Translations under genes and position numbers: made by a program | Part shown: positions 2,778-63,236 of the stretch, piece by piece | Layout of the letters: the number at the start of each line of letters is the position of its first letter | Numbering within the stretch: position 1 is the first letter of the stretch | Notes under the pieces: model-generated | What the model was told of the DNA's origin: nothing | What the model saw: the letters and a program-made list of their open reading frames with translations, nothing else | Database searches by the model: none | Origin: Escherichia coli | GTDB lineage: Bacteria; Pseudomonadota; Gammaproteobacteria; Enterobacterales; Enterobacteriaceae | DNA length: 64,000 bases | Reading direction: 5' to 3' (one strand) | NCBI RefSeq assembly: GCF_044324875.1 | Contig: NZ_CP172185.1

Positions 2778-3341
2778 GTGCGATATCTGGCAACATTGTT
2801 GTTATCTCTGGCGGTGTTAATCACCGCCGGGTGTGGCTGGCATCTGCGTGATACCACGCAGGTTCCTTCCACTATGAAGGTCATGATCCTGGACTCAGGC
2901 GATCCGAACGGGCCATTAAGCCGTGCGGTGCGTAACCAGTTACGTCTGAATGGTGTCGAGTTGCTTGATAAAGAAACCACGCGTAAGGACGTTCCATCCC
3001 TGCGTTTGGGTTCTGTATCAATCTCGCAGGATACCGCTTCAGTTTTCCGTAATGGTCAAACAGCGGAATATCAGATGGTGATGACTGTCAGTGCGAGCGT
3101 ATTGATTCCGGGTCAAGATATTTACCCAATTAGCGCCAAAGTCTTCCGTTCGTTCTTTGATAACCCACAAATGGCGTTAGCGAAAGATAACGAACAGGAG
3201 ATGATTGTAAAAGAGATGTACGACCGTGCTGCCGAACAGTTGATCCGTAAACTGCCAAGCATCCGTGCTGCTGAAATTCGTTCTAACGAAGATGATGTAG
3301 CAGCAACGCCTGCACGCGTCTCTACCACGCTGGGTAACTGA
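2778..3341 (+). CDS. lptE: LPS assembly outer-membrane lipoprotein LptE (RlpB)
   Basis: GTG start; lipoprotein signal peptide with lipobox LITAGC; immediately downstream of leuS as in E. coli. Confidence 0.9.
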
Positions 3342-17402: not shown

Positions 17403-17431
17403 AAAAAAAACCCGCTGATTAAGCGGGTTTT
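17403..17431. terminator. bidirectional rho-independent terminator between crcB and cspE
   Basis: AAAAAAAACCCGC-TGATTAA-GCGGGTTTT hairpin with flanking A/T runs. Confidence 0.8.
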
Positions 17432-17450
17432 GAATTCTTGCTGACGTATC

Positions 17451-17660
17451 TTACAGAGCGATTACGTTTGCAGCAGAAGGGCCTTTGGCACCGTTAGTGA
17501 TTTCGAACTCTACGCGCTGACCTTCAGCAAGAGTTTTAAAACCATTAGTCTGGATTGCAGAGAAGTGTACGAACACGTCTTTGCTGCCGTCTTCCGGAGT
17601 AATGAAACCGAATCCTTTGGACTCATTAAACCACTTAACGTTACCTTTAATCTTAGACAT
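17451..17660 (-). CDS. cspE: cold-shock protein CspE
   Basis: ORF 17451..17744 trimmed to [12 protein letters not shown] start (69 aa); RNP motifs KGFGFI and VFVHF. Confidence 0.93.
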
Positions 17661-17834
17661 CAAAATTACCTTTACATGAAAAATAGACACAAATGCTGTG
17701 TCGGTTACCAGTACACCAATTGTGGTACGCTTTGTCCAGTGCAACTTTACTAAAAAGTGATAAAAGTCGCGTTATTTTTGATGTTAATTATTTTACCCAT
17801 TGATTTTAAAGAGTTTACTAAAATTTCATTTGTC

Positions 17835-30753: not shown

Positions 30754-30900
30754 TCCTCTGATTTACAAAACACGCTAATTCGTCTTCCATAAACCATGAC
30801 GATTAAGATTTATACATAATGCACTGCATTGAGGAATTCCCTGAATGTGACGCAAATCACTTCAAAGAGTGAGCAACAGTCAGTATCATCATGTGAGTTA

Positions 30901-30935
30901 AACCCTCGCCGCCTGACGGTGAGGGTTTTCTTTTG
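30901..30935 (+). terminator. terminator hairpin downstream of rna
   Basis: AACCCTC-N13-GAGGGTT followed by TTCTTTTGGG. Confidence 0.6.
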
Positions 30936-30982
30936 GGTATGTTTATCTGCGACACTCGCAGTACCGACGACATGGAGTAAAA

Positions 30983-34597: not shown

Positions 34598-34968
34598 CTA
34601 TACTTCCTCCGTGTTTTCGATGAGATGTAAGGTAACCAATTTTTGCCGATTCGGCTAATGCGTTTCCATTATCAAATCGATAAGTTTTACCTTACAACCT
34701 TCGTAAGACAACTTTGTGAACTTTGCACCGCCAGCGGCGATAAAAAGTAAAATGGCCCCCTTTCCAGGTGACCGTGTAATCTGAACTACCCTTTGGTATC
34801 TTCAGCGCCTGCCTGCAGGCTGAGGTGTTGCCCTTACAAATGCAACAACGACATGGATTACAACACCCTCATAAACAAAGGGCAATCACCTGATCTAAGC
34901 TCTTACCTATGACAGTGATAGGTTATGCCTTTTACCCGACTTTTGCACTGACTGAAAAGGACAAATTA

Positions 34969-36971: not shown

Positions 36972-38192
36972 ATGTCTATTTATAAAATCCCGCTTCCACT
37001 GAATATTCTGGAAGCTGCAAAAGAACGTATTACCTGGACACTTAACACCCTACCCCGCGTCTGCGTTTCTTTTTCGGGTGGTAAAGATTCCGGATTAATG
37101 CTGCATCTGACCGCCGAACTTGCCCGACAAATGGGCAAAAAAATTTGTGTTTTATTTATCGACTGGGAAGCTCAGTTCTCTTGCACCATTAACTATGTTC
37201 AGTCCCTGCGCGAGTTGTACACCGATGTCATCGAAGAGTTTTACTGGGTTGCGCTCCCGCTTACAACGCAAAATTCCCTATCACAATACCAACCCGAATG
37301 GCAGTGCTGGGAACCTGATGTCGAATGGGTACGTCAGCCCCCGCAAGATGCGATAACCGATCCTGACTTTTTCTCCTTTTACCAGCCTGGCATGACCTTC
37401 GAACAATTTGTGCGTGAGTTTGCCGAATGGTTTTCGCAAAAACGTCCGGCGGCGATGATGATCGGCATCCGTGCGGATGAGTCCTACAACCGTTTTGTCG
37501 CCATCGCCAGTTTAAATAAACAACGTTTTGCCGATGATAAGCCCTGGACCACTGCCGCACCAGGCGGTCATAGCTGGTACATTTACCCCATCTACGACTG
37601 GAAAGTCGCTGATATCTGGACCTGGTATGCTAGCCATCAACGCCTCTGTAACCCACTGTATAATATAATGTATCAGGCAGGCGTTCCTCTACGTCATATG
37701 CGAATTTGCGAACCTTTTGGTCCGGAACAACGGCAAGGATTATGGCTCTATCACGTTATCGAACCGGATCGCTGGGCTGCTATGTGCGCACGAGTCAGCG
37801 GGGTAAAAAGTGGCGGCATTTACGCCGGACATGACAACCATTTTTATGGTCATCGGAAAATCCTCAAGCCCGAACATTTAGACTGGCAGGAGTATGCATT
37901 ATTGCTACTCAACAGCATGCCGGAGAAAACAGCTGAGCATTATCGCAATAAAATCGCCATTTATTTGCACTGGTATCAGAAAAAAGGCATCGAGGTTCCA
38001 CAAACCCAGCAAGGGGACATTGGCGCGAAAGATATCCCCTCCTGGCGGCGAATATGCAAAGTTTTACTCAATAACGATTACTGGTGTCGGGCATTATCAT
38101 TTAGCCCGACCAAAGCGAAGAACTATCAGCGTTATAACGAACGAATAAAAGGAAAACGTCAGGAATGGGGGATACTATGCAACAACGATTAA
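36972..38192 (+). CDS. ybdN: PAPS-reductase-like / PP-loop ATP pyrophosphatase family protein YbdN (IbrA-like)
   Basis: 406 aa; PP-loop SGGKDS at residues 35-40 (nt 37074..37091); 3' end overlaps ybdM by 28 nt. Confidence 0.8.
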   Translation: MSIYKIPLPLNILEAAKERITWTLNTLPRVCVSFSGGKDSGLMLHLTAELARQMGKKICVLFIDWEAQFSCTINYVQSLRELYTDVIEEFYWVALPLTTQNSLSQYQPEWQCWEPDVEWVRQPPQDAITDPDFFSFYQPGMTFEQFVREFAEWFSQKRPAAMMIGIRADESYNRFVAIASLNKQRFADDKPWTTAAPGGHSWYIYPIYDWKVADIWTWYASHQRLCNPLYNIMYQAGVPLRHMRICEPFGPEQRQGLWLYHVIEPDRWAAMCARVSGVKSGGIYAGHDNHFYGHRKILKPEHLDWQEYALLLLNSMPEKTAEHYRNKIAIYLHWYQKKGIEVPQTQQGDIGAKDIPSWRRICKVLLNNDYWCRALSFSPTKAKNYQRYNERIKGKRQEWGILCNND

Positions 38193-38794
38193 CGCAGGAT
38201 TTAACCCAATTTCTCGCCAGCTTGCCGGAAGACGATCGCATCAAAGCGATTAATGAAATCCGCATGGCGATCCATCAGGTTAGCCCCTTTCGAGAAGAGC
38301 CAGTGGATTGCGTTCTGTGGGTTAAAAACAGCCAACTTATGCCTAATGATTACAACCCAAACAACGTGGCACCACCCGAAAAAAAACTGCTGAAAAAATC
38401 CATTGAAATAGATGGTTTTACCCAACCCATTGTGGTCACGCATACGGATAAAAATGCCCTGGAAATCGTGGATGGTTTTCACCGCCATGAAATTGGTAAA
38501 GGCTCATCATCGTTAAAATTACGCTTAAAAGGTTATTTGCCGGTGACCTGTCTGGAAGGTACGCGTAATCAACGCATCGCCGCGACTATTCGTCATAACC
38601 GCGCTCGTGGTCGCCACCAAATCACTGCCATGTCCGAAATTGTTCGTGAACTCAGCCAGTTGGGATGGGACGATCATAAAATCGGCAAAGAGCTGGGAAT
38701 GGACAGCGACGAAGTGCTGCGCCTGAAACAAATTAATGGCCTGCAAGAGTTGTTTGCCGACCGTCAATATTCCCGTGCCTGGACTGTCAAATAA
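38165..38794 (+). CDS. ybdM: ParB/Srx-like domain protein YbdM (IbrB-like)
   Basis: 209 aa; DGFHR motif (nt 38471..38485) resembling the DGQHR/ParB box. Confidence 0.8.
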   Translation: MGDTMQQRLTQDLTQFLASLPEDDRIKAINEIRMAIHQVSPFREEPVDCVLWVKNSQLMPNDYNPNNVAPPEKKLLKKSIEIDGFTQPIVVTHTDKNALEIVDGFHRHEIGKGSSSLKLRLKGYLPVTCLEGTRNQRIAATIRHNRARGRHQITAMSEIVRELSQLGWDDHKIGKELGMDSDEVLRLKQINGLQELFADRQYSRAWTVK

Positions 38795-39955
38795 CTACAG
38801 CTGGCGCAGGCGTTCAGCTGCAGCCAGCAACGTCGATTCCTTCTTGGCAAAACAGAGACGAATCAGTTTATGGGGGAAGGGATCGGCGCAAAACACCGAC
38901 AGCGGAATCGCCGCTACACCGTGCTCCCGCGTCAGCCACTGGCAAAACTCAACGTCATCCAGCGAAGAAACCGCGCTGTAATCCACCAGCAAAAAGTAAG
39001 TGCCTTCGCACGGTAAAATCTCCAGCCGACTCTCACTTAAGGCATTCACCAGAATATCGCGTTTCTGGCGATAAAAGTCCGGTAACGCAAGATAATGCTC
39101 AGGTTCTGCACGTAGCATATCCGCAAGTGCCAGCTGTGCCGGGGTATTCACCGAAAAGGTCAGATACTGGTGTACCTTGCGAATTTCAGCGCTGATGGGC
39201 GCTGGCGCAACGCAATAACCCACTTTCCAGCCGGTCATATGATAGGTCTTGCCAAATGAAGAAACTGCCACCGCCCGCTCACGCAGCTGCGGATGCGCCA
39301 GCACGCTGGCATGGCCCTGTTGTGAAAAGTTGATGTGCTCGTAAACTTCATCGCTAATGACAAAAATCTCGTGCCCGCCGATCGCCTGCCACAAAGCGGC
39401 GAAATCAGCCTGCTGCCAGACAGTTGCACTGGGGTTATGCGGGGTGTTGAGGATCACCAGTCGGGTGCGCTCGCTTAACAATGCGGCAAATTCCTGCCAG
39501 TCCACGCGAAAATGCGGTGGTTGCAGTGCAATACGTTTCACTATTCCCCCCGAAAGCGCGATGGCGGGCGCGTAACTGTCATAGCTGGGATCAAAGCAGA
39601 TCACTTCATCACCATTGCGCACCAATGCGGTAATCGCTGCATATAACGCTTCCGTCGCCCCTGCCGTTACGGTGATATCGCTATCGGCATCCGGTTGATA
39701 GCCATACAGACGTTCCGTTTTCTGAGCAATCGCCTCGCGCAAGGCCTGCACGCCAGTCATAGGCGCGTATTGGTTTGCCCCCTGGGCAACGTGGTACGCC
39801 AGCCGCTCCTGCAAATAGCGCGGACCATCAAAATCAGGAAAGCCTTGTGACAGGTTAATCGCCTGGTGTTGCTGCGCCAGCGCGCTCATCTGGGTGAAAA
39901 TAGTGGTGCCAAGTTGTGGAAGTTTGCTTTGTGGAATCAGAGGGTTATTTGTCAT
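38795..39955 (-). CDS. ybdL: methionine aminotransferase (PLP-dependent, class I)
   Basis: 386 aa; PLP-lysine context SSFGKTYHMTGWKVGY; stop codon abuts ybdM stop (convergent, zero spacer). Confidence 0.88.
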   Translation of the reverse strand: MTNNPLIPQSKLPQLGTTIFTQMSALAQQHQAINLSQGFPDFDGPRYLQERLAYHVAQGANQYAPMTGVQALREAIAQKTERLYGYQPDADSDITVTAGATEALYAAITALVRNGDEVICFDPSYDSYAPAIALSGGIVKRIALQPPHFRVDWQEFAALLSERTRLVILNTPHNPSATVWQQADFAALWQAIGGHEIFVISDEVYEHINFSQQGHASVLAHPQLRERAVAVSSFGKTYHMTGWKVGYCVAPAPISAEIRKVHQYLTFSVNTPAQLALADMLRAEPEHYLALPDFYRQKRDILVNALSESRLEILPCEGTYFLLVDYSAVSSLDDVEFCQWLTREHGVAAIPLSVFCADPFPHKLIRLCFAKKESTLLAAAERLRQL

Positions 39956-40062: not shown

Positions 40063-41151
40063 ATGCCTCACAATCCTATCCGCGTGGTCGTCGGCCCGGC
40101 TAACTACTTTTCACATCCAGGAAGTTTCAATCACCTGCACGATTTTTTCACTGATGAACAGCTTTCTCACGCGGTGTGGATCTACGGCGAACGCGCCATT
40201 GCTGCGGCGCAAACCAAACTTCCGCCAGCGTTTGAACGGCCAGGGGCAAAGCATATTTTGTTTCGCGGTCATTGCAGCGAAAGCGATGTACAACAACTGG
40301 CGGCTGACTCCGGTGACGACCGCAGCGTGGTGATTGGCGTCGGCGGCGGCGCACTGCTCGACACCGCGAAAGCCCTCGCCCGCCGTCTCGGTCTGCCGTT
40401 TGTTGCCGTTCCGACGATCGCCGCTACCTGCGCAGCCTGGACACCGCTCTCCGTCTGGTATAACGATGCCGGACAGGCGCTGCATTATGAGATTTTCGAC
40501 GACGCCAATTTTATGGTGCTGGTGGAACCGGAGATTATCCTCAACGCGCCGCAAGAATATCTGCTGGCGGGGATCGGTGACACGCTGGCGAAATGGTATG
40601 AAGCGGTGGTGCTGGCCCCGCAACCAGAAACGTTGCCGTTAACCGTGCGGCTGGGGATCAATAATGCGCAGGCCATTCGCGACGTATTGTTAAACAATAG
40701 CGAACAGGCGCTTGCCGATCAGCAAAATCAACAGTTAACGCAATCATTTTGCGATGTGGTGGATGCGATTATCGCCGGAGGTGGAATGGTCGGTGGTCTG
40801 GGCGATCGTTTTACGCGTGTGGCGGCGGCCCATGCCGTGCATAACGGTCTGACCGTGCTGCCGCAAACCGAGAAGTTTCTCCACGGCACCAAAGTCGCCT
40901 ACGGAATTCTGGTGCAAAGCGCCTTGCTGGGTCAGGATGATGTGCTGGCACAATTAACCGGGGCGTATCAGCGTTTTCATCTGCCGACTACGCTGGCGGA
41001 GCTGGAAGTGGATATCAATAATCAGGCGGAGATCGACAAAGTGATTGCCCACACCTTACGTCCGGTGGAATCCATTCATTACCTGCCGGTCACGCTGACA
41101 CCAGATACGTTGCGTGCAGCGTTCGAAAAAGTGGAATCGTTTAAAGCCTGA
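40063..41151 (+). CDS. ybdH: iron-containing alcohol/hydroxycarboxylate dehydrogenase family protein YbdH
   Basis: 362 aa; nucleotide-binding GGGALLDTAKA motif. Confidence 0.85.
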   Translation: MPHNPIRVVVGPANYFSHPGSFNHLHDFFTDEQLSHAVWIYGERAIAAAQTKLPPAFERPGAKHILFRGHCSESDVQQLAADSGDDRSVVIGVGGGALLDTAKALARRLGLPFVAVPTIAATCAAWTPLSVWYNDAGQALHYEIFDDANFMVLVEPEIILNAPQEYLLAGIGDTLAKWYEAVVLAPQPETLPLTVRLGINNAQAIRDVLLNNSEQALADQQNQQLTQSFCDVVDAIIAGGGMVGGLGDRFTRVAAAHAVHNGLTVLPQTEKFLHGTKVAYGILVQSALLGQDDVLAQLTGAYQRFHLPTTLAELEVDINNQAEIDKVIAHTLRPVESIHYLPVTLTPDTLRAAFEKVESFKA

Positions 41152-41160
41152 CGTACATAT

Positions 41161-41358
41161 TTAGCAGCAGCGCGCGCCGCCTTTTCCACCGTAGCGCGCG
41201 TCCTGCCGCTCACGGAAAAACTCCTCGTAGGTCATCGGCGTTTGATCGGGATGGTTAACCCGCATATGTTCGACATAGTTGTCGTAATCAGGCATACCAA
41301 TCATCAGCTTCGCCGCCTGACCTAAATATTTTCCGGCTTTTGCCAGTGAATCAAACAT
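41161..41358 (-). CDS. ybdD: DUF466 small protein YbdD (partner of CstA)
   Basis: 65-aa ORF matching remembered YbdD, downstream of cstA on the same strand. Confidence 0.8.
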
Positions 41359-48667: not shown

Positions 48668-48705
48668 AAATGATAAAGGCTTTAATAATGATTATCATTT
48701 ATATT
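48668..48705. promoter_or_regulatory. Fur box in the divergent entC/fepB control region
   Basis: AATAATGATTATCATT closely matches the Fur consensus GATAATGATAATCATTATC. Confidence 0.75.
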
Positions 48706-48842: not shown

Positions 48843-49799
48843 GTGAGACTCGCCCCGCTCTACCGCAACGCCCTTCTATTAACAGGACTTTTGCTTTCAG
48901 GAATAGCCGCAGTTCAGGCCGCCGACTGGCCGCGTCAGATTACTGACAGCCGTGGCACTCATACCCTGGAAAGCCAGCCGCAGCGTATTGTTTCCACAAG
49001 CGTCACCCTGACCGGCTCACTGCTGGCGATTGATGCTCCGGTGATTGCCAGCGGCGCGACCACGCCAAATAACCGCGTCGCGGATGACCAGGGCTTTTTA
49101 CGCCAGTGGAGCAAGGTAGCGAAAGAACGCAAATTGCAACGACTCTATATCGGTGAACCAAGTGCCGAAGCAGTTGCCGCGCAAATGCCGGATCTGATTT
49201 TAATTAGCGCAACCGGCGGTGATTCGGCGCTGGCGCTGTACGATCAGCTTTCCACCATCGCCCCGACATTAATCATCAATTACGACGACAAAAGCTGGCA
49301 GTCGCTGTTAACGCAACTTGGCGAAATTACCGGGCATGAGAAACAAGCGGCAGAGCGGATTGCGCAGTTTGATAAGCAACTGGCGGCGGCGAAAGAGCAA
49401 ATCAAATTACCGCCGCAGCCGGTCACTGCCATTGTCTATACCGCCGCTGCACACAGTGCCAATCTCTGGACGCCTGAATCAGCACAAGGGCAGATGCTGG
49501 AACAACTCGGCTTTACGCTGGCGAAGTTGCCCGCAGGGTTAAACGCCAGCCAAAGCCAGGGCAAACGCCATGACATCATTCAGCTTGGTGGGGAAAATCT
49601 GGCTGCAGGGTTAAATGGTGAGTCACTATTCCTGTTCGCCGGTGATCAGAAAGACGCCGATGCTATTTATGCTAATCCGCTGCTCGCGCACCTGCCTGCA
49701 GTACAAAACAAGCAGGTTTATGCGCTGGGAACCGAGACGTTCCGACTGGATTACTACAGCGCCATGCAAGTGCTGGAACGACTTAAGGCGCTGTTTTAA
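48843..49799 (+). CDS. fepB: ferrienterobactin periplasmic binding protein
   Basis: 318 aa, GTG start; signal peptide; long structured leader upstream. Confidence 0.9.
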
Positions 49800-49802
49800 G
49801 CA

Positions 49803-51053
49803 TTAACTGTCGGACGCTGTCATCTGCGGCGGCGTCTGGCGAAAACGTCGCAACTCCACCAGCACCAGCAATAACAACACGCCGATAATCAACAAACCAA
49901 AACCGCTCGCGCTTGCGGAAGCAACCGGTGTCATCATCGCTCCCAAACCGCCCAGCAGCGCCGCGCCTATGGCATCGCCCGTCACGTTTTGCGCCGTCCA
50001 CAAACCGTTAATCCGCCCTAACATCGCTTCCGGGGTTTGTGTTTGCAGCATTGTGTATTGCAGCAACGAACTAACCGCGCTCAGCCAGCCGAACAGCGCC
50101 AGACAAACCACGCCTAAAATCCACATCGGCATCAGGCCAAACAGACCAATGGCGAGGAACGATCCCAGCGTGGAGAGCAGCATCAACAACCCTGGTCGCG
50201 CACTATGTGCCAGCTTCCCGCTGGTTAACGCGCCAATAGCCGCGCCGAGCGGGATCGCCGCATAGAGAAAACCAATCTGTGCCGCCGACATCTGCCAGTT
50301 GTCAGCCAGCGCCGGATACAGTACCCGCACCGCGCTCGCCATCGTCAATAAACCACCCAGCAGCGCAATCCCTCCCACCAGCGGGCTGGCGAGCAGAAAA
50401 CGAAATCCTGCCAGTAATGATTTCAACGGATGCTCACGCGGCTGCGGTGGCGGTGGCAACGCCGGAAGGCTTAACAACGGTAGCAAGGTAATAAACGTGC
50501 CCGCCGCCGCCAGCCCGTAGTTCCAGGCTACGCCGCCGGTCGCCAGCAATAAACCGCCAATCATAGGCGAAATCACCGACCCCAGGCGCACGGTCAACAT
50601 GGTGATCGCCCCGGCCTGCATTAAGTTTTCACGCCCTACCAGTGCAGGCGTCGCCGCCAGTAGCGCCGTAACGCCAAGTGATGCGAAAAAACCATCCCAT
50701 AAACCAAGTAAATAGATTGCCAGCAATGACGGCTCCGGCAGCAGTGCATTAAGGCACAGTCCAATGAAGCCAATGCCACAGGTGCCGCGCGCCAGCAAAA
50801 TCACTTTTTTGCGCTCATAGCGATCCGCCAGCACACCGCCGACCATCAGGCCAACAAACATCGCGCCGCCGGTCAGCGTCACCGAAAGCCCCACCTGCCA
50901 GGTAGAATGCGTCATCATCTGGATCTGCACGGGCACCGCGACGCCGAGCAAACCCAGAGACACAATTGAGATAAAACGAGCGAGGAATACTGCACGAAAC
51001 GCCGGGTGCGTTTTCAACAGGCTGAGGTTAAGCAGCCAGGATTGTTTATTCAT
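49803..51053 (-). CDS. entS: enterobactin exporter (MFS)
   Basis: 416 aa, 12-TM MFS profile. Confidence 0.9.
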
Positions 51054-51126: not shown

Positions 51127-51153
51127 GATAACGATAATTAATTTAATTATCAT
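51127..51153. promoter_or_regulatory. Fur box in the divergent entS/fepD control region
   Basis: GATAACGATAATTAATTTAATTATCAT, iron-box-like dyad between divergent starts. Confidence 0.6.
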
Positions 51154-52168: not shown

Positions 52169-53157
52169 TTTACGTCTCTCGCCGATTAATCATCACCTGT
52201 TTGCTGCTAATTACCGCCTGTGTGGTTGCAGGTATCTGGGGATTACGCAGCGGTACCGTCGCGCTGGAAACCTCGCAGATATTCGCCGCGCTGATGGGCG
52301 ATGCGCCGCGCAGTATGACGATGGTGGTCACTGAATGGCGTTTACCACGCGTGCTGATGGCGCTGTTGATTGGTGCGGCACTGGGCGTCAGCGGCGCGAT
52401 TTTTCAGTCGCTGATGCGTAACCCGCTCGGCAGCCCTGACGTAATGGGCTTTAACACCGGGGCGTGGAGCGGCGTGCTGGTGGCGATGGTGCTGTTTGGT
52501 CAGGACCTGACGGCTATCGCCCTGGCAGCAATGGCGGGGGGCATTATCACTTCGCTGTTGGTCTGGCTGCTTGCCTGGCGTAACGGCATCGACACCTTTC
52601 GGTTGATTATTATCGGCATCGGCGTTCGCGCCATGCTGGTGGCCTTTAATACCTGGCTGTTGCTGAAAGCGTCTTTAGAAACGGCGCTAACAGCGGGTTT
52701 ATGGAATGCCGGATCGCTCAACGGCCTGACGTGGGCAAAAACCTCGCCTTCCGCACCCATCATTATATTGATGCTCATTGCCGCCGCCTTGCTGGTGCGG
52801 CGAATGCGCTTGCTGGAAATGGGCGATGATACCGCGTGTGCGCTGGGCGTCAGCGTCGAACGTTCGCGGCTGTTAATGATGCTGGTCGCCGTAGTGCTTA
52901 CCGCAGCCGCCACTGCGCTGGCGGGGCCGATTTCCTTTATTGCTTTAGTCGCGCCACACATTGCCCGCCGCATTAGCGGCACCGCTCGCTGGGGGCTGAC
53001 CCAGGCGGCGCTGTGCGGAGCGCTGTTACTGCTGGCGGCCGATCTCTGCGCCCAACAACTGTTTATGCCGTATCAACTTCCGGTTGGCGTCGTTACCGTC
53101 AGCCTCGGCGGTATTTACCTTATCGTCTTGTTAATTCAGGAGTCTCGCAAAAAATGA
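52165..53157 (+). CDS. fepG: ferrienterobactin ABC transporter permease FepG
   Basis: 330 aa; ATGA overlap with fepD. Confidence 0.9.
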   Translation: MIYVSRRLIITCLLLITACVVAGIWGLRSGTVALETSQIFAALMGDAPRSMTMVVTEWRLPRVLMALLIGAALGVSGAIFQSLMRNPLGSPDVMGFNTGAWSGVLVAMVLFGQDLTAIALAAMAGGIITSLLVWLLAWRNGIDTFRLIIIGIGVRAMLVAFNTWLLLKASLETALTAGLWNAGSLNGLTWAKTSPSAPIIILMLIAAALLVRRMRLLEMGDDTACALGVSVERSRLLMMLVAVVLTAAATALAGPISFIALVAPHIARRISGTARWGLTQAALCGALLLLAADLCAQQLFMPYQLPVGVVTVSLGGIYLIVLLIQESRKK

Positions 53158-53969
53158 CCGAATCAGTAGCCCGTTTGCGTGGCGAACAGTTAACCCTCGG
53201 ATATGGCAAATATACCGTTGCGGAAAATCTGACTGTAGAAATTCCTGATGGTCACTTCACGGCAATTATCGGGCCAAATGGCTGCGGTAAATCCACGTTA
53301 TTGCGTACCTTAAGCCGCCTGATGACGCCTGCTCACGGGCATGTCTGGCTGGATGGTGAGCACATTCAACATTACGCCAGTAAAGAGGTTGCACGCCGGA
53401 TTGGCCTGTTGGCGCAAAACGCCACCACGCCGGGAGATATCACCGTGCAGGAGCTGGTGGCGCGTGGGCGTTACCCGCATCAACCGCTGTTTACCCGCTG
53501 GCGCAAAGAAGATGAAGAAGCGGTAACGAAAGCGATGCAGGCCACGGGAATCACCCATCTGGCAGATCAAAGCGTGGATACCCTTTCTGGCGGACAACGC
53601 CAGCGAGCGTGGATCGCGATGGTGCTGGCCCAGGAAACGGCAATTATGCTGCTCGATGAACCAACGACCTGGCTGGATATCAGTCATCAGATTGATCTAC
53701 TGGAACTGCTAAGCGAACTGAACCGCGAGAAAGGCTATACCCTGGCGGCAGTGCTGCACGATCTTAATCAGGCCTGTCGTTACGCCAGCCATTTGATTGC
53801 ATTGCGGGAAGGGAAAATTGTTGCTCAGGGAGCGCCGAAGGAGATTGTCACTGCTGAATTGATCGAGCGCATTTATGGTCTGCGCTGCATGATTATTGAC
53901 GATCCGGTAGCCGGAACGCCGCTCGTGGTGCCGCTCGGACGAACGGCACCTTCAACTGCCAAGATTTAA
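53154..53969 (+). CDS. fepC: ferrienterobactin ABC transporter ATPase FepC
   Basis: ORF 53013..53969 trimmed to MTESVARLRG start (271 aa); Walker A GPNGCGKST, signature LSGGQRQR, Walker B LLDEP. Confidence 0.93.
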   Translation: MTESVARLRGEQLTLGYGKYTVAENLTVEIPDGHFTAIIGPNGCGKSTLLRTLSRLMTPAHGHVWLDGEHIQHYASKEVARRIGLLAQNATTPGDITVQELVARGRYPHQPLFTRWRKEDEEAVTKAMQATGITHLADQSVDTLSGGQRQRAWIAMVLAQETAIMLLDEPTTWLDISHQIDLLELLSELNREKGYTLAAVLHDLNQACRYASHLIALREGKIVAQGAPKEIVTAELIERIYGLRCMIIDDPVAGTPLVVPLGRTAPSTAKI

Positions 53970-55099
53970 ACTAAGTGCTCTTCCATCACGGCATCCTGTT
54001 TTCTGGATGCCATCGCATGGCGCAACAGCACGCCACCACAAGCCACCATCCCGCCGATCATCGCAGAAAGGATCACAATAATCGCCTTACCCGGACCGTC
54101 TTTTTTCACTGGCAATGACGGGCTTAACTGATATTTAAACGGCGTAAAATTCACATCGTTGATATTTGTTTTTGTTAGCTGCTCAACAAGATACTGACGA
54201 TTACGTAATTCACCGTTCAGTTCCGCAACGTCAGTAACCGCTTTTTCAATTTCCAGTTTGCGTTCAATACCGTCTGCGCCGAGAGAAATAGAGAAATCGG
54301 GGTCATCTTTAACGGCCTGACCATTACTGTAAACGGGCTTTTTAATTCCTGCCGCGTTAGCAATGTCGAGTGAATAATTGAGGCGCTGAATGTTTGCATC
54401 AAGTTGATTTTTCGTTTTAATGCGATCCTGAGCCAGTTTTTCTTTTTCAAACTGGGTTTTGATCTCCAGTTTATTACGGACGTTTTCTATCGACTCTTTC
54501 ACCACCAACGCAGAGATATAATCGATATACCCGCTCAAAACGGTCTGCGCCTCTTCGCTGGTTGGCGCGGTAAAACTTAGCGTCCAGGAGGTATACAGTG
54601 ACGGTTCATCTTTTTTCTTACTGGCATTGTCATCAACCGCTTTCATTTTTTCGCTCAATGCGACAATTGCGCGATGCAAATCCAGTTCGTCGATTTTCGC
54701 CTCTTTTAATTGGTCCATCACATAAGGTGTTGAGCGCAGGTACTCTTCCAGCAAGCTAACCGACTGAAACTTCTTGATAAACAGGTTAAATGCTTCTGTA
54801 CGATCAATTTTGATATCCAGATCCAGCACACGAAGCTTAGTGAATGTTTTCTCAAGCGCCTGCCACTGAACAGGTTCTGGAGGCGTGACAACCGCCGCGC
54901 TGGTCCATTTTTGCGACAGGATGAAAGAGATCAGTAAACCTGCGCAGGCAAACGCAAAAACGACCGCCATGACCGTTTTTTTGGCCCGCCATAAAACTCC
55001 AATTAGATTAAGTAAATCAATTTCATTATTACTGGGCGACGCCAGAGGATACTCAGGAAAATGAGCGTCACTTCCCTGTTTAATATTCAGTGATGACAT
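53966..55099 (-). CDS. fepE: polysaccharide co-polymerase (Wzz-like) FepE
   Basis: ORF trimmed to MSSLNIKQGS start (377 aa); N- and C-terminal TM segments flanking a coiled-coil periplasmic domain; 3' end overlaps fepC 3' end by 4 nt. Confidence 0.88.
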   Translation of the reverse strand: MSSLNIKQGSDAHFPEYPLASPSNNEIDLLNLIGVLWRAKKTVMAVVFAFACAGLLISFILSQKWTSAAVVTPPEPVQWQALEKTFTKLRVLDLDIKIDRTEAFNLFIKKFQSVSLLEEYLRSTPYVMDQLKEAKIDELDLHRAIVALSEKMKAVDDNASKKKDEPSLYTSWTLSFTAPTSEEAQTVLSGYIDYISALVVKESIENVRNKLEIKTQFEKEKLAQDRIKTKNQLDANIQRLNYSLDIANAAGIKKPVYSNGQAVKDDPDFSISLGADGIERKLEIEKAVTDVAELNGELRNRQYLVEQLTKTNINDVNFTPFKYQLSPSLPVKKDGPGKAIIVILSAMIGGMVACGGVLLRHAMASRKQDAVMEEHLV

Positions 55100-55265
55100 G
55101 GGGTATAACCTGAAAATGAGTCCAATAGGGGAAATCTCCACGGCGCTCACTTTACCAGTTGGTGAGAATTATCCGAAGCTGAAGTTTGTAAATTCCTTCC
55201 ACTGAATGCAACATTCACTCTATTTAAGAGAAATATCCACCAAACTTATAAATTAAATAAATGAT

Positions 55266-55298
55266 AAACCCATAATTATTTCCTGTAATTATGGGTTT
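55266..55298 (-). other. 13-bp-stem hairpin in the entF-fepE spacer (candidate intra-operon attenuator)
   Basis: AAACCCATAATTA-TTTCCTG-TAATTATGGGTTT, perfect inverted repeat downstream of the entF stop. Confidence 0.4.
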
Positions 55299-55313
55299 AT
55301 AGATAATATTAAT

Positions 55314-58300
55314 TTACCTGTTTAGCGTAGCGCGAATAATCGGCCCAATTTTTTCAAACGCCCCTGGAGAGATAATATCCACATGCGCACAATCCTGACG
55401 ATAGATATCCAGCTCCGCAATCCACGGCGACCAGGCGCGTTCGGGATTCATACCTTCCTGAAGCGTGCGTTCAGCAACAAACAGCGTCGCTTTACCGTCA
55501 AACGGTACACTATGAGCAGTCGTCAGCAGGCGCACAGCATCAGCGTAGTTGCCTTCAATGGTGGTAAACAACTCCGTTGAAGTACTTCCCTGCTGTGCCG
55601 CCAGGAAGGCCTCGCGCTCGCGGTTAATCTCCGCCAGCACTTCCGGGTCCAGGCCATTAGCCTCTTTTTCCTGCCAGTTTTGCGTTTCTGGCGGCCAGGT
55701 ATCCAGCAAGCCAAGAAATGCCACCTGTTCGCCACGGGCACGCAGCCGCGCCGCAATACCCTGCGCCAGCGTACCGCCCAGCGAATAACCCAGCAGGTAA
55801 TAAGGGCCGTGCGGTTGATGCTCAAGTAACGTTGCCAGATGCGCTTCGCAGACTTCATCCAGATTTGCCGCGGTCTGCATGGGGCCATTGGGGCGCGGCG
55901 ACTGAATGCCGATAATCGACCATTGTGGATCGAGATAACGCGAGAGCACGCTGAACTGCCAGGCAAAACCGGACGCAGGATGGAAACAAAACAGCGTCGG
56001 GCCATTACCTTCACGCAACGGCAGAATGGTTTCGAATCCCATGCGCCGGGAGCTGTCCTCTTCACCATCAATAATCGTTGCCAGTTTGGCGACGGTTGAT
56101 GCGACCATCACCTGCCCCGGCGTCACCTGACGGGCAAAGTGTCGACTTAACTGCGCTGCCAGTTTCATTGCCAGTAGCGAATGACCGCCAAGCGCGAAGA
56201 AATCAGCATCGGCATCCTGCACGTCACAACCCAGCAACGACGAGAATGCCGCGGCGATAATCGTTTCACTGCCCGCTTTCGGCGCACGCCCCGGCGCTTG
56301 TGCCTTCAGTTCAGGCAACGGTAAGGCTTTGCGATCCAGCTTGCCGTTGGCGCTAAGCGGCAACTGCGGAAGTTGCAGCAGAACCACGGGCACCATATGC
56401 GGTGGCAATGTTTCGCGCAACTGCGCCTGCAATGCAGTGGTATCCAGCGGCAGGCCTGATTGCGACACAAGATACCCAACCAACTGACGCGCATCGCCTC
56501 CCGTTGCGGCAGCCTGGTTAATGACGCAGGCGTGGGTAACGGCCTGTTCGACATCCGGCAGTGCCTGCATCACGCGATCGATTTCGCCCAGTTCGATACG
56601 CTGCCCGCGAATTTTTAGCTGATCGTCACTGCGCCCGAGGTACTCCACCGCGCCGTTATCCAGCCAGCGGGCAACGTCTCCGGTACGGTACATCCGTTCA
56701 CCTGGGGCAAAAGGATCGGCAATAAAGCGGCTGGCTGTCAGATCGGGTCGTCCAAGATACCCCTGCGCCAGTTGAATACCGGTGAGATAGAGATCTCCCG
56801 CCACACCTGGCGGCACCGGATGCATCATCGCATCAAGAATACGCAGGCCCGTATTCCACACCGGATAACCAATCGGCACACTGCTGCCGCGCACCTGTGC
56901 CAGTTCCTCGCCAAAAGCCGGATACCAGCTGACATCTACCGCCGCTTCCGTCGGGCCATATAGATTATGCAACGGCACGCTGGTTAACTGTTGCCATTCG
57001 CGGCATAAATCAGCGGGTAAGGCCTCACCACTACAGAAAACCTGTTTCAACGTCGCGCAATTCTGGCGAGCGGTTTGCGGAGTCAGCGATGCAACAAAAG
57101 CTGCCAGCATCGACGGCACAAAGTGCGTGGTCGTTACGCCATATTCGGCAAAGAATTGCTGCATAGCGAGCGGGTCGCGGTGCGCTTCCGGTTCAGCCAT
57201 CACCAGTTTAGCCCCGGCAATAAACGGCCAGAAAAACTCCCACACCGAGACATCAAAACTGCACGGCGTTTTTTGGGCAACGACATCTTCGCCTGTAAGC
57301 GGGTAGTGGTTTTGCATCCAAAGCAGGCGGTTAACGATAGCCGTCTGCCCGACCATTACCCCTTTCGGCCTGCCGGTGGAGCCAGAGGTAAAGATGATAT
57401 AAGCCGTGTGGTGCGGTTGTGAAAGTTTCAGCGGCGCACTGCCCTGCGGTGTAAGCGGGGCGTTATAGCAAAGGCTGGTTAAATCTGGAACATCGGCAAA
57501 GCGCGGCAGTTGATCGTCGGTGGTGATTAACAGCGACGGACGCGCATCTTCCAGCATCATTTTCAGGCGATCGTCCGGATAGCCGGTATCCAGCGGTAAC
57601 CAGGCCGCACCAGCCTCAACAATTGCATGTAGCGCCAGAGTCAAAAAGACCGAGCGCGGTAGCGCCACCGCCACGCTGTCGCCTGGTTTAACGCCGCGCT
57701 CACGCAGCAGATTCGCCAGCGCCACCACCTGCTCGCGCATTTCCCGATAGCTAAACTGGTAACTCGCATCAACCAGCGCCGGAGCATGCGGTGTTTTTGC
57801 CGCCTGTTCCGCCACCAGCGCGCTCAGCGTGGTTTCTGGAATCTCAACCTGAGTGGCGTTGATCTGCGCCAGCTGCACATATTCACCTGGCAGCATAATA
57901 TCGACATCGCCGCACAACAGCGCCGGATCCGCGGCGAACTGGGCAATCAGCATTTTCAGGCGTTCAGCGTGTTGAATTAACGTTGGCTCATCGTAACGCT
58001 GTTTATTGGCGAGGATCTCAATACTCAAATCACCGTGTTCATCCGGGAACAGTGCCAGTTCAAGGTCATTAACCGGACCGGTTGCCAGGGTATGGGTTTG
58101 CGCCTGAACACCAGGAATATCCAGTTGGTAATCAAATACCTTGATATTGAGTACCGGACCAAACAGCGGTTCATCACCTGCCGCTCGCCCGCTGTCACGG
58201 ACAATTTGTTCGGCATCGTAACGTTGATGACGACGCATTTTTTTCAGTTGTGCTGCCAGTCGGGTTGCCAGTTGCGGCAGCGTTTCTTGCGCCTCAATAT

Positions 58301-63136: not shown

Positions 63137-63236
63137 TGCCGGATGCGGCGTGAACGCCTTATCCGGCCTACAAAAATCTTGCCAATTCAATATATTGCAG
63201 GACCACGTAGGCCTGATAAGCGTAGCGCATCAGGCA
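63137..63236. repeat. BIME: two REP elements in opposite orientation downstream of fepA
   Basis: TGCCGGATGCGGCGTGAACGCCTTATCCGGCCTAC at 63137 and GTAGGCCTGATAAGCGTAGCGCATCAGGC at 63207. Confidence 0.75.

What the first reader, a model, noticed from the sequence alone, without database searches (positions are those of the whole stretch)
53966..53969. Convergent genes with overlapping or abutting stop codons (fepC/fepE, ybdM/ybdL)
fepC (+) and fepE (-) share 4 nt at their 3' ends, and ybdM (+) and ybdL (-) stop codons are directly adjacent (38794/38795), leaving no room for terminators. Convergent transcription must therefore collide or read antisense into the partner gene.
Basis: seen in the sequence. 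Interest (0 to 1): 0.2.

Follow-up and report, generated by a model that had tools for sequence, protein, structure and literature searches.

The report
Ordinary stop-to-stop convergent gene junctions
Two pairs of E. coli genes that face each other really do end with no DNA between them, but this is a common, long-annotated arrangement, and the RNA hairpins that usually sit between such genes are here tucked inside the last codons of the neighbouring gene.

Summary
fepC (+) and fepE (-) share the tetramer TTAA at 53966-53969. The ybdM stop ends at 38794 and the ybdL stop starts at 38795. Both junctions are annotated identically in E. coli K-12 and occur in more than 99% of 5,426 complete E. 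coli genomes. TTAA is one of four stop/stop tetramers already described as the commonest convergent overlap; E. coli has 58 convergent overlaps.

"No room for terminators" is only half right. No hairpin-plus-U-tract terminator exists at either junction. However, three of the four transcripts meet a stable stem-loop 6-20 nt after their stop codon, inside the partner's last codons.

At fepC/fepE both stems are invariant across eight Escherichia sequences, while the 39 nt between them vary. Salmonella, Citrobacter and a rare E. coli fepE allele instead have a 30-54 nt spacer holding a classic bidirectional terminator.

The most likely mechanism is Rho-dependent termination inside the partner gene, with trimming back to these hairpins. 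Polymerase collisions may add to this when both iron-regulated operons are on. This is inferred, not shown.

Published strand-specific RNA-seq shows low antisense signal in all four genes.

Verdict: already known, low interest.

The parts
53154..53969 (+). fepC coding sequence (ferric enterobactin ABC transporter ATPase, 271 aa). The last 7-8 codons (TAPSTAKI) are an Escherichia-specific C-terminal extension.
   Evidence: ORF and translation. Annotation in K-12 and CP026723. In Salmonella, Citrobacter and the rare E. coli allele fepC ends ...VVPLGR(N/Q)K*.
53966..55099 (-). fepE / wzz(fepE) coding sequence (O-antigen chain-length regulator, 377 aa). The true ATG is at 55099-55097; the listed ORF start at 55150 is an upstream GTG.
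53966..53969 (.). TTAA: the shared 4 nt of the two stop codons (fepC TAA at 53967-53969; fepE TAA is the complement of 53966-53968).
   Evidence: Conserved in all 8 Escherichia sequences compared. One of the four known stop/stop tetramers (PMC2174442).
53927..53950 (-). Hairpin A: GGTGCCGCTC-GGAC-GAACGGCACC, inside the last 14 codons of fepC. On the minus-strand RNA it forms 10 bp (one G.U) starting 15 nt after the fepE stop. It has no U-tract. Proposed role: 3' stem-loop of fepE transcripts.
   Evidence: Fold of -20.9 kcal/mol, z -2.9, 2 of 200 shuffles as good. p 0.014 against 1120 antisense-CDS 60-mers. Invariant in 8 Escherichia sequences, with a run of 8 invariant third-codon positions against a gene-wide variable fraction of 0.42. 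The 3' arm lies in the Escherichia-specific fepC extension.
53990..54011 (+). Hairpin B: GGCATCC-TGTTTTCT-GGATGCC (7 bp here, 9 bp in K-12), inside the last 15 codons of fepE, starting 20 nt after the fepC stop. It has no U-tract. Proposed role: 3' stem-loop of fepDGC transcripts.
   Evidence: Fold of -14.8 kcal/mol, z -2.56, 5 of 200 shuffles as good. By energy alone it is not exceptional (p 0.16). The stem is invariant in all 6 aligned fepE genes, against a gene-wide third-position variable fraction of 0.58; the only change is in the loop.
54021..54100 (+). The most C-rich, G-poor 80 nt of the RNA downstream of fepC (C minus G = 19). Candidate Rho-loading region.
   Evidence: Only marginally unusual for antisense-of-CDS RNA (p 0.06).
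38165..38794 (+). ybdM coding sequence (IbrB-like / ParB-N domain protein, 209 aa); stop TAA at 38792-38794.
38795..39955 (-). ybdL coding sequence (methionine aminotransferase, 386 aa); stop TAG is the complement of 38795-38797.
   Evidence: The 0-nt gap is kept in E. fergusonii and E. albertii while the stop codons themselves vary.
38800..38828 (+). Stem-loop GCTGGCGCAG-GCGTTCAG-CTGC(A)GCCAGC inside the last 11 codons of ybdL, 5 nt after the ybdM stop. It has no U-tract.
   Evidence: Fold of -18.7 kcal/mol, z -2.54; p 0.04 against antisense-CDS background. It is not conserved in E. albertii, where the 5' arm changed without compensation, so its function is doubtful. The opposite transcript (after the ybdL stop) has no structure (z +0.6).

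Best explanation
These are two ordinary, conserved members of the known class of convergent gene pairs whose stop codons overlap (TTAA) or abut.

Origin of the fepC/fepE junction (inferred from comparison). The overlap is a derived state of the genus Escherichia. Relatives keep a 30-54 nt spacer carrying a classic bidirectional terminator. In Escherichia that spacer is gone. The fepC frame runs on for 7-8 extra codons until it meets the complement of the fepE stop.

Mechanism (inferred, not shown). Each operon's polymerase transcribes past its stop codon into the partner's 3' coding end. The RNA there is untranslated antisense RNA and is terminated mainly by Rho. Exonucleases then trim the 3' tail back to a stable stem-loop without a U-tract that lies within about 45 nt of the stop. 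These stem-loops are hairpin B (53990-54011) for fepDGC, hairpin A (53927-53950) for fepE and 38800-38828 for ybdM. ybdL transcripts have no such structure and probably end diffusely.

Collisions (inferred). When both Fur-controlled operons are induced, head-on polymerase encounters in the roughly 85-nt zone bounded by the two hairpins may add to termination.
For: Shown:
- The geometry and its conservation.
- No hairpin-plus-U-tract terminator at either junction.
- Stem-loops directly after three of the four stop codons.
- Post-stop 60-mers are more structured than 1120 antisense-CDS 60-mers: p 0.014, 0.16, 0.04 and 0.72. Fisher combined p is 7.5e-4 when the two neighbouring tight pairs, entS/fepB and ybdD/hcxA, are included.
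- Both fepC/fepE stems are invariant in 8 Escherichia sequences, while 7 of the 39 nt between them differ between this window and K-12.
- Runs of invariant third-codon positions at exactly the stems give roughly p 0.013 and 0.001.
- Lineages with a spacer (Salmonella, Citrobacter, E. coli NCTC9967, L006) carry one canonical A-run/GC-hairpin/T-run palindrome and lack the fepC extension.
- The divergent cassette boundary falls inside hairpin A.

From the literature:
- Steady-state 3' ends of Rho-dependent E. coli mRNAs sit just after stable stem-loops that lack U-tracts, with C>G sequence downstream (PMC6061677).
- Convergent overlaps with terminators inside the partner CDS were described in PMC2174442.
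- Low antisense read counts are seen in all four genes (PMC7373196, Table S1c).
- The three best Fur-box-like sites in the window lie in the fepD-entS and fepB-entC promoter regions.
Against: - No 3'-end map for these genes was found. The Term-seq supplements of PMC7815308 that are held contain no fepE, fepC, ybdL or ybdM ends, probably because the genes are barely expressed in iron-replete media.
- C>G tracts downstream of the stops are not above what any antisense-of-CDS RNA shows (p 0.06-0.36). They allow Rho action but do not argue for it specifically.
- Hairpin B is unremarkable by energy alone (p 0.16).
- The ybdL-embedded hairpin is lost in E. albertii without compensation, and ybdL has no hairpin at all.
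- The conservation tests rest on only about 4 independent Escherichia lineages. The stems lie in coding DNA, so amino-acid constraint explains part of the conservation.
Confidence: 0.55

Rival explanations
1. Collision-driven bidirectional termination is the main mechanism. Converging polymerases pause at the nascent stem-loops, meet head-on in the roughly 85-nt zone between hairpins A and B, and are dislodged by trailing polymerases, as described for intergenic bidirectional terminators.
For: - The known system requires a convergent pair plus a nascent stem-loop and does not need a U-tract or Rho (bioRxiv 10.1101/2022.10.23.513370).
- Both operons are iron-regulated, so they would be active together. 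Fur-box-like sites lie at 51133-51151 and 48684-48702; Fur control of fes-entF-fepE is from established knowledge.
- Two conserved stem-loops bracket the overlap.
Against: - The described elements are single palindromes located between genes. Here there are two separate hairpins inside coding DNA.
- Collision termination needs high polymerase flux on both sides, and fepE and ybdM/ybdL are weakly expressed.
- No collision or 3'-end data exist for these loci.
Confidence: 0.2
2. The hairpins are incidental products of coding sequence and chance. Transcripts have no defined ends, read far into the partner gene, and the antisense RNA is merely tolerated noise.
For: - The ybdL-embedded hairpin is not kept in E. 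albertii, and ybdL has no downstream structure.
- Hairpin B is within the normal energy range.
- C>G tracts are generic.
- Antisense:sense read ratios are high in fepE (about 1.1) and ybdM (about 0.4) in PMC7373196 Table S1c.
Against: - Synonymous-site invariance sits exactly at the two fepC/fepE stems, while the 39 nt between them are the most variable part of the region.
- Post-stop structure is enriched across the four tight pairs of the window.
- Every lineage examined, with or without a spacer, keeps a 7-18 bp hairpin within about 40 nt of each stop.
Confidence: 0.2
3. The overlap is a regulatory device of the excludon type. Transcription of one operon represses the partner through antisense RNA, RNase III cleavage of the duplex, or transcriptional interference.
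For: - The geometry permits a complementary overlap of at least 85-95 nt if both transcripts end at their hairpins.
- At the neighbouring tight pair ybdD/hcxA (ybdH), antisense reads exceed sense reads (66 against 18 RPM), and p19-captured dsRNA is high at 270-602 RPM.
Against: - p19-captured dsRNA is very low in fepE (0.08-1.4 RPM), fepC, ybdL and ybdM.
- Antisense levels do not rise clearly in rnc mutants.
- fepDGC and fes-entF-fepE are co-induced rather than mutually exclusive.
- The rare E. coli allele and other genera work with a normal terminator.
Confidence: 0.07
4. It is an annotation artefact: one of the coding sequences really ends earlier, so there is no overlap.
For: The last 7-8 residues of FepC and the last approximately 7 residues of FepE are poorly conserved.
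Against: - Stop codons are set by the frame, and there is no earlier in-frame stop.
- Homologues align up to the tails.
- The same ends are annotated in K-12 and by PGAP.
Confidence: 0.02

Closest known systems
4-nt stop/stop convergent overlaps (tetramers CTAA, TTAA, CTAG, TTAG) described in surveys of prokaryotic overlapping genes (Lillo & Krakauer 2007, PMC2174442)
   Same: fepC/fepE share exactly TTAA. The origin by 3' extension after loss of the old stop fits: fepC gained 7-8 codons relative to other genera. The question of where terminators go was already raised there, with 23 of 116 such E. coli genes having predicted terminators inside the partner CDS.
   Different: Nothing of substance. 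ybdM/ybdL is the 0-nt (abutting) neighbour of this class rather than an overlap.
Protective 3' stem-loops of Rho-dependent transcripts (Dar & Sorek 2018, PMC6061677)
   Same: Stable stem-loops with energies like those of terminators, no U-tract, and C>G sequence downstream, located shortly after the stop codon.
   Different: Here the stem-loops lie inside the coding sequence of the convergent partner. Rho dependence and the actual 3' ends are untested for these genes.
Overlapping bidirectional terminators at convergent gene pairs with collision-driven termination (Ju et al. 2019, known to me only as cited in the preprint read; Wang et al. 2022, bioRxiv 10.1101/2022.10.23.513370)
   Same: A convergent pair with stem-loop-forming sequence at the boundary. 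The relatives (Salmonella, Citrobacter, rare E. coli allele) carry a single intergenic palindrome of this kind at the same position.
   Different: In the main Escherichia allele there is no intergenic palindrome. Two different hairpins about 40 nt apart sit in the two coding ends.
Canonical intrinsic (Rho-independent) terminator
   Same: GC-rich stem-loops of 7-10 bp close to the stop codon.
   Different: No U-tract follows any of them, and none passed the consensus scan.

Membership tests
4-nt stop/stop convergent overlap class | Two coding sequences on opposite strands whose stop codons share a tetramer [C/T]TA[A/G] | tested here: met
   TTAA at 53966-53969. Annotated the same way in K-12. 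ybdM/ybdL is TAA|CTA with a 0-nt gap, i.e. adjacent rather than overlapping.
4-nt stop/stop convergent overlap class | Origin by 3' extension of one gene after loss of its former stop codon | tested here: met
   fepC ends ...PLGR(N/Q)K* in Salmonella, Citrobacter and the rare E. coli allele, and ...PLGRTAPSTAKI* in Escherichia. The divergent cassette boundary lies at about 53940.
Canonical intrinsic terminator | GC-rich stem-loop close to the 3' end of the gene | tested here: met
   Hairpins at 53927-53950 (- strand RNA), 53990-54011 and 38800-38828.
Canonical intrinsic terminator | U-rich tract (at least 5 of 8) directly after the stem | tested here: not met
   The consensus scan finds none at either junction. 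The tails read ACGAGCGG, ATCGCATG and AACGTCGA.
Rho-dependent 3' end with protective stem-loop | Stable stem-loop without a U-tract at the steady-state 3' end | tested here: inconclusive
   Stem-loops without U-tracts are present for 3 of 4 transcripts. The real 3' ends are not mapped in any data I could reach.
Rho-dependent 3' end with protective stem-loop | C-rich, G-poor (rut-like) RNA downstream of the stem-loop | tested here: inconclusive
   C minus G maxima of 13-19 per 80 nt are present, but they are typical of antisense-of-CDS RNA (p 0.06-0.36).
Rho-dependent 3' end with protective stem-loop | Read-through increases when Rho is inhibited (bicyclomycin) | not testable with these tools
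   Needs RNA-seq of treated, iron-starved cells.
Overlapping bidirectional terminator (collision-driven) | A single palindromic element between a convergent gene pair that serves both directions | tested here: not met
   No intergenic DNA; two distinct hairpins in coding sequence. The feature is met in Salmonella, Citrobacter, L006 and L083 at the orthologous site.
Overlapping bidirectional terminator (collision-driven) | Opposing transcripts with overlapping, well-defined 3' ends that depend on convergent transcription | not testable with these tools
   Needs SEnd-seq or Term-seq and promoter deletions.
Excludon | Long antisense overlap giving mutually exclusive expression, with RNase III processing of the duplex | tested here: not met
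   Published p19-captured dsRNA is very low in the four genes, and antisense reads do not rise in rnc mutants. Caveat: those data come from rich medium only.

The most novel reading that the evidence does not exclude
In the genus Escherichia the ancestral intergenic bidirectional terminator between fepC and fepE was replaced by a "split" terminator written into protein-coding DNA. It consists of two different stem-loops, one in the last codons of each gene, each serving the opposite transcript. Both are kept by selection at synonymous sites, while the protein tails between them drift freely. If general, tight convergent pairs would carry a recognisable coding-embedded 3'-end code.
Probability: 0.3. 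Interest if true: 0.3.

Novelty: already known. Interest (0 to 1): 0.1.

Why it matters
It matters little. The junctions are annotated in the reference genome. The class of overlap and the terminator question it raises were described in 2007, and mechanisms for ending convergent transcripts are established (Rho plus protective stem-loops, and collision-assisted bidirectional termination).

The modest added value has two parts:
- There is a clean natural comparison. One species, E. coli, carries both a terminator-containing spacer allele (for example NCTC9967) and the overlap allele at the same locus.
- There is sequence evidence that stem-loops for 3'-end formation can be maintained inside coding DNA.

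That pair of alleles would be a convenient test bed for how convergent, co-induced operons end their transcripts.

Tried and rejected
- Consensus terminator and promoter scans around both junctions gave nothing above the shuffle expectation.
- An Rfam scan of the whole window found four families, none near either junction.
- C>G (rut-like) tracts looked striking against the whole-window background (99.9th percentile). They turned out to be ordinary for antisense-of-CDS RNA, so they are not used as evidence of selection.
- The ybdL-embedded hairpin was considered as a conserved element and rejected, because E. albertii lost the 5' arm without a compensating change.
- Published 3'-end and transcript-overlap data gave nothing for these genes. 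The held Term-seq supplements of PMC7815308 have no entries for the four genes. The supplements of PMC6061677, PMC4161252 and PMC12288877 are not held. Ju et al. 2019 is not held.
- No paper mentions fepE, fepC and antisense together.
- A Fur consensus search with 3 or fewer mismatches found nothing. A relaxed scan placed the three best sites (15 of 19 matches) in the ent/fep divergent promoter regions.
- Annotation artefact was rejected from the reading frames.
- I asked whether the rare fepE allele is a recent import from Salmonella or Citrobacter. It is about equally distant (73-77% aa identity) from all of them, so its source is unresolved.

Full report
**1.

- Reading the window shows ...GCC AAG ATT TAA at the end of the fepC frame, with TAA at 53967-53969.
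- On the other strand the fepE frame ends ...CAC TTA GTT TAA, whose stop is the complement of 53966-53968.
- The two coding sequences therefore share TTAA at 53966-53969.
- ybdM ends with TAA at 38792-38794, and the ybdL stop is the complement of CTA at 38795-38797, so the gap is zero.
- Stop positions follow from the reading frames, so this is not an annotation choice.
- The same coordinate relations are annotated in E. coli K-12 MG1655: fepE 618254-619387 and fepC 619384-620199; ybdL 633586-634746 and ybdM 634747-635376. They are also annotated in the closest complete genome.
- The window is an Escherichia coli ent/fep-ybd region. A 1.2-kb probe across the fepC/fepE junction matches 5416 of 5426 complete E. 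coli genomes, with a best identity of 98.9%.

**2. It is not unusual**

- A 111-nt probe across the fepC/fepE junction aligns without gaps in 5407 of 5426 genomes. A 201-nt probe across ybdM/ybdL does so in 5416 of 5426.
- The window contains eight convergent pairs, with gaps of -4, 0, 3, 9, 40, 53, 101 and 120 nt.
- Lillo & Krakauer (PMC2174442) counted 58 convergent overlaps in E. coli.
- They showed that 4 nt is the modal overlap length.
- They named CTAA, TTAA, CTAG and TTAG as the tetramers that end two genes on opposite strands.
Terminators of such genes must lie inside the partner's coding sequence, and 23 of the 116 genes have a predicted one.
- The finding is therefore a textbook instance of a described class.

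**3. What lies around the junctions**

- The consensus scan finds no hairpin-plus-U-tract terminator at either junction.
- Folding the first 45-60 nt after each stop codon shows stem-loops for three of the four transcripts:

| Transcript | Stem-loop (window coordinates) | Position relative to stop | Energy (kcal/mol) | z-score |
|---|---|---|---|---|
| fepE (- strand) | hairpin A, 53927-53950, 10 bp | starts 15 nt after the fepE stop; inside the last 14 fepC codons | -20.9 | -2.9 |
| fepC (+ strand) | hairpin B, 53990-54011, 7 bp here, 9 bp in K-12 | starts 20 nt after the fepC stop; inside the last 15 fepE codons | -14.8 | -2.6 |
| ybdM (+ strand) | 38800-38828 | starts 5 nt after the ybdM stop; inside ybdL | -18.7 | -2.5 |
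| ybdL (- strand) | none | - | -4.9 | +0.6 |

- None of the stem-loops is followed by a U-tract.
- Compared with 1120 random 60-mers of antisense-of-CDS RNA from the window, the four post-stop segments rank at p 0.014, 0.16, 0.04 and 0.72.
- Adding the two other tight pairs of the window (fepB/entS, gap 3; hcxA/ybdD, gap 9) gives a Fisher combined p of 7.5e-4 and a Mann-Whitney p of 0.0065.
- The normally spaced pairs dcuC/dpiA and uspG/ahpF show classic hairpin-plus-T-run terminators.

**4. Controls that weakened part of the story**

- RNA downstream of the fepC stop is C-rich and G-poor. C minus G is 19 per 80 nt, the 99.9th percentile of the whole window.
- Measured against antisense-of-CDS RNA only, the four downstream tracts are ordinary (p 0.06, 0.22, 0.17 and 0.36).
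- They are compatible with Rho loading, as is any antisense RNA, but they are not evidence of a selected rut site.

**5. Comparative evidence, fepC/fepE**

- Scanning one genome per species with FepC gave 80 loci.
- A 4-nt overlap occurs only in Escherichia: the main E. coli allele, E. albertii, E. whittamii and Escherichia sp. MOD1.
- Citrobacter and Salmonella have a convergent fepE 30-54 nt (sometimes more) away. Most other genera have no fepE next to fepC.
- In the spaced lineages fepC ends ...VVPLGR(N/Q)K*. The spacer holds a canonical bidirectional terminator, for example Salmonella GAAAAAGCCGGATAATCGCTATCCGGCTTTTTGG.
- A rare E. coli allele (NCTC9967, locus L083; also L006) has the same spaced arrangement: a 35-36 nt gap with AAAAAATGGAGCGC...GCGCTCCATTT.
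- Against L083 the window is 97-100% identical on both sides but only about 70-75% identical from about 53940 to about 55373. That block covers fepE with both its junctions. Its left boundary falls inside hairpin A.
- The rare FepE is 73-77% identical to all other FepE proteins compared, so its source is unresolved.
- In the main Escherichia allele fepC is 7-8 codons longer (TAPSTAKI), and the 3' arm of hairpin A lies in that extension.

**6. Selection on the hairpins**

- Across eight Escherichia sequences both stems are invariant.
- The 39 nt between them encode both protein tails. In that stretch K-12 differs from this window at seven positions and the other Escherichia species differ at more.
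- In fepC, 42% of third-codon positions vary among six sequences, yet a run of eight invariant third positions coincides with hairpin A. That gives 0.58^8, about 0.013; it is the second longest such run in the gene.
- In fepE, 58% of third positions vary, yet the nine codons of hairpin B are invariant at third positions. The only change, CAG to CGG, is in the loop; this gives roughly p 0.001.
- These tests rest on about four independent lineages and on coding DNA, so they are suggestive rather than decisive.

**7. Comparative evidence, ybdM/ybdL**

- The zero gap is kept in E. fergusonii and E. albertii, although the stop codons themselves vary (TAA or TAG on one side, CTA or TTA on the other).
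- Citrobacter rodentium lacks ybdL and hcxA. There ybdM is followed by an 81-nt spacer and then ybdD.
- The hairpin embedded in ybdL is not kept in E. albertii: the 5' arm changed with no compensating change. I therefore do not claim a function for it.

**8. Published expression data**

- Strand-specific RNA-seq of E. coli in rich medium (PMC7373196, Table S1c; headers, values) gives these wild-type sense/antisense RPM values:

| Gene | Sense RPM | Antisense RPM |
|---|---|---|
| fepE | 1.09 | 1.18 |
| fepC | 2.52 | 0.34 |
| ybdL | 11.2 | 1.9 |
| ybdM | 9.4 | 4.0 |

- One RPM is about 10.7 reads (10.7 million aligned reads), so these antisense values correspond to only about 4-43 reads.
It is relatively highest where the incoming transcript lacks a hairpin (ybdL into ybdM).
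- p19-captured dsRNA is very low in the four genes (fepE 0.08-1.4 RPM). Antisense reads do not rise in rnc mutants, which argues against strong duplex formation in that condition.
- The neighbouring tight pair behaves differently. ybdH (hcxA) has 66 antisense against 18 sense RPM and 270-602 RPM of captured dsRNA. This is consistent with read-through from the highly expressed cstA-ybdD unit.
- No 3'-end map for the four genes could be found.

**9. Most likely mechanism**

- The features at fepC/fepE are a stable stem-loop without a U-tract close to the stop, followed by untranslated, C-rich antisense RNA. This is the published signature of Rho-dependent transcripts whose tails are trimmed back by PNPase or RNase II to a protective stem-loop (PMC6061677).
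- I therefore propose Rho-dependent termination inside the partner gene, with hairpin-defined steady-state 3' ends.
- Predicted ends lie just past 54011 for fepDGC, just past 53927 on the minus strand for fepE, and just past 38828 for ybdM. ybdL ends are predicted to be diffuse.
- The three best Fur-box-like sites of the window lie in the fepD-entS and fepB-entC promoter regions. Fur control of fes-entF-fepE is established knowledge.
- The convergent units at fepC/fepE are therefore co-induced. Head-on collisions, as shown for intergenic bidirectional terminators (bioRxiv 10.1101/2022.10.23.513370), may contribute.
- All of this is inference from sequence and from other genes.

**10. Verdict**

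There is no intergenic terminator and there is some antisense RNA. But termination signals do not need intergenic room, and collision is not forced.
- The kind is already known, and interest is low.
- The only mildly new points are two. The Escherichia overlap replaced an ancestral spacer carrying a bidirectional terminator. Two conserved coding-embedded stem-loops now bracket the junction.

Noticed in passing
window 49799-49803 (fepB/entS) and 41151-41161 (hcxA/ybdD): The two other convergent pairs of the ent/fep-ybd region are also almost gapless (3 nt and 9 nt), so all four convergent pairs between 38 and 54 kb have gaps of 9 nt or less. Strong hairpins without U-tracts lie in the partner's coding end. 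One example is a 14-bp stem at about 49808-49841 after the fepB stop (-23.4 kcal/mol, 0 of 200 shuffles as good). Published data show ybdH (hcxA) antisense reads exceeding sense reads (66 against 18 RPM) and high captured dsRNA.
   Followed up: partly
window ~53940-55373; L083 (E. coli NCTC9967) and L006: fepE with both its junctions is a sharply bounded divergent cassette (about 70-75% identity) between flanks of 97-100% identity. A rare E. coli allele carries a different FepE (76-77% aa identity), a shorter FepC and a 35-36 nt spacer with a classic bidirectional terminator. Its source lineage is unresolved.
   Followed up: partly
window 55264-55300, minus strand (entF-fepE spacer): An AT-rich perfect palindrome with a 15-bp stem (ATAAACCCATAATTA...TAATTATGGGTTTAT) followed by a T-rich tail lies just after the entF stop. 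It overlaps a weak promoter-like match. It could be an entF terminator or attenuator, or a protein-binding site upstream of fepE.
   Followed up: no
hits H10, H11 and locus L091: Some E. coli genomes carry IS1 insertions in fepE. In strain EC05 an IS1 sits inside the FepC tail codons, a few nt before the position of the overlap, and fepE sequence is not seen next to it in the 448 bases fetched.
   Followed up: no
window 38165-38192: ybdN and ybdM (a PAPS-reductase-like protein and an IbrB/ParB-N-like protein, an IbrA/IbrB-type pair) overlap co-directionally by 28 nt. This is much more than the usual 1-4 nt.
   Followed up: no
L085 (Citrobacter rodentium) 3119-3199: C. rodentium lacks ybdL and hcxA. 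There ybdM is followed by an 81-nt spacer with a REP-like GC-rich palindrome, and then ybdD. ybdL-hcxA is therefore an insertion or deletion difference between the genera.
   Followed up: no
window 30829-30937 (+), 17403-17761 (-), 34742-34835 (-), 63173-63214 (+): Rfam matches above the gathering score, all unrelated to the finding: rnk leader, cspA-type thermoregulator (at the position where the closest genome, annotates cspE; mapping inferred), STnc70 sRNA and ES036 (CssrF) sRNA.
   Followed up: no
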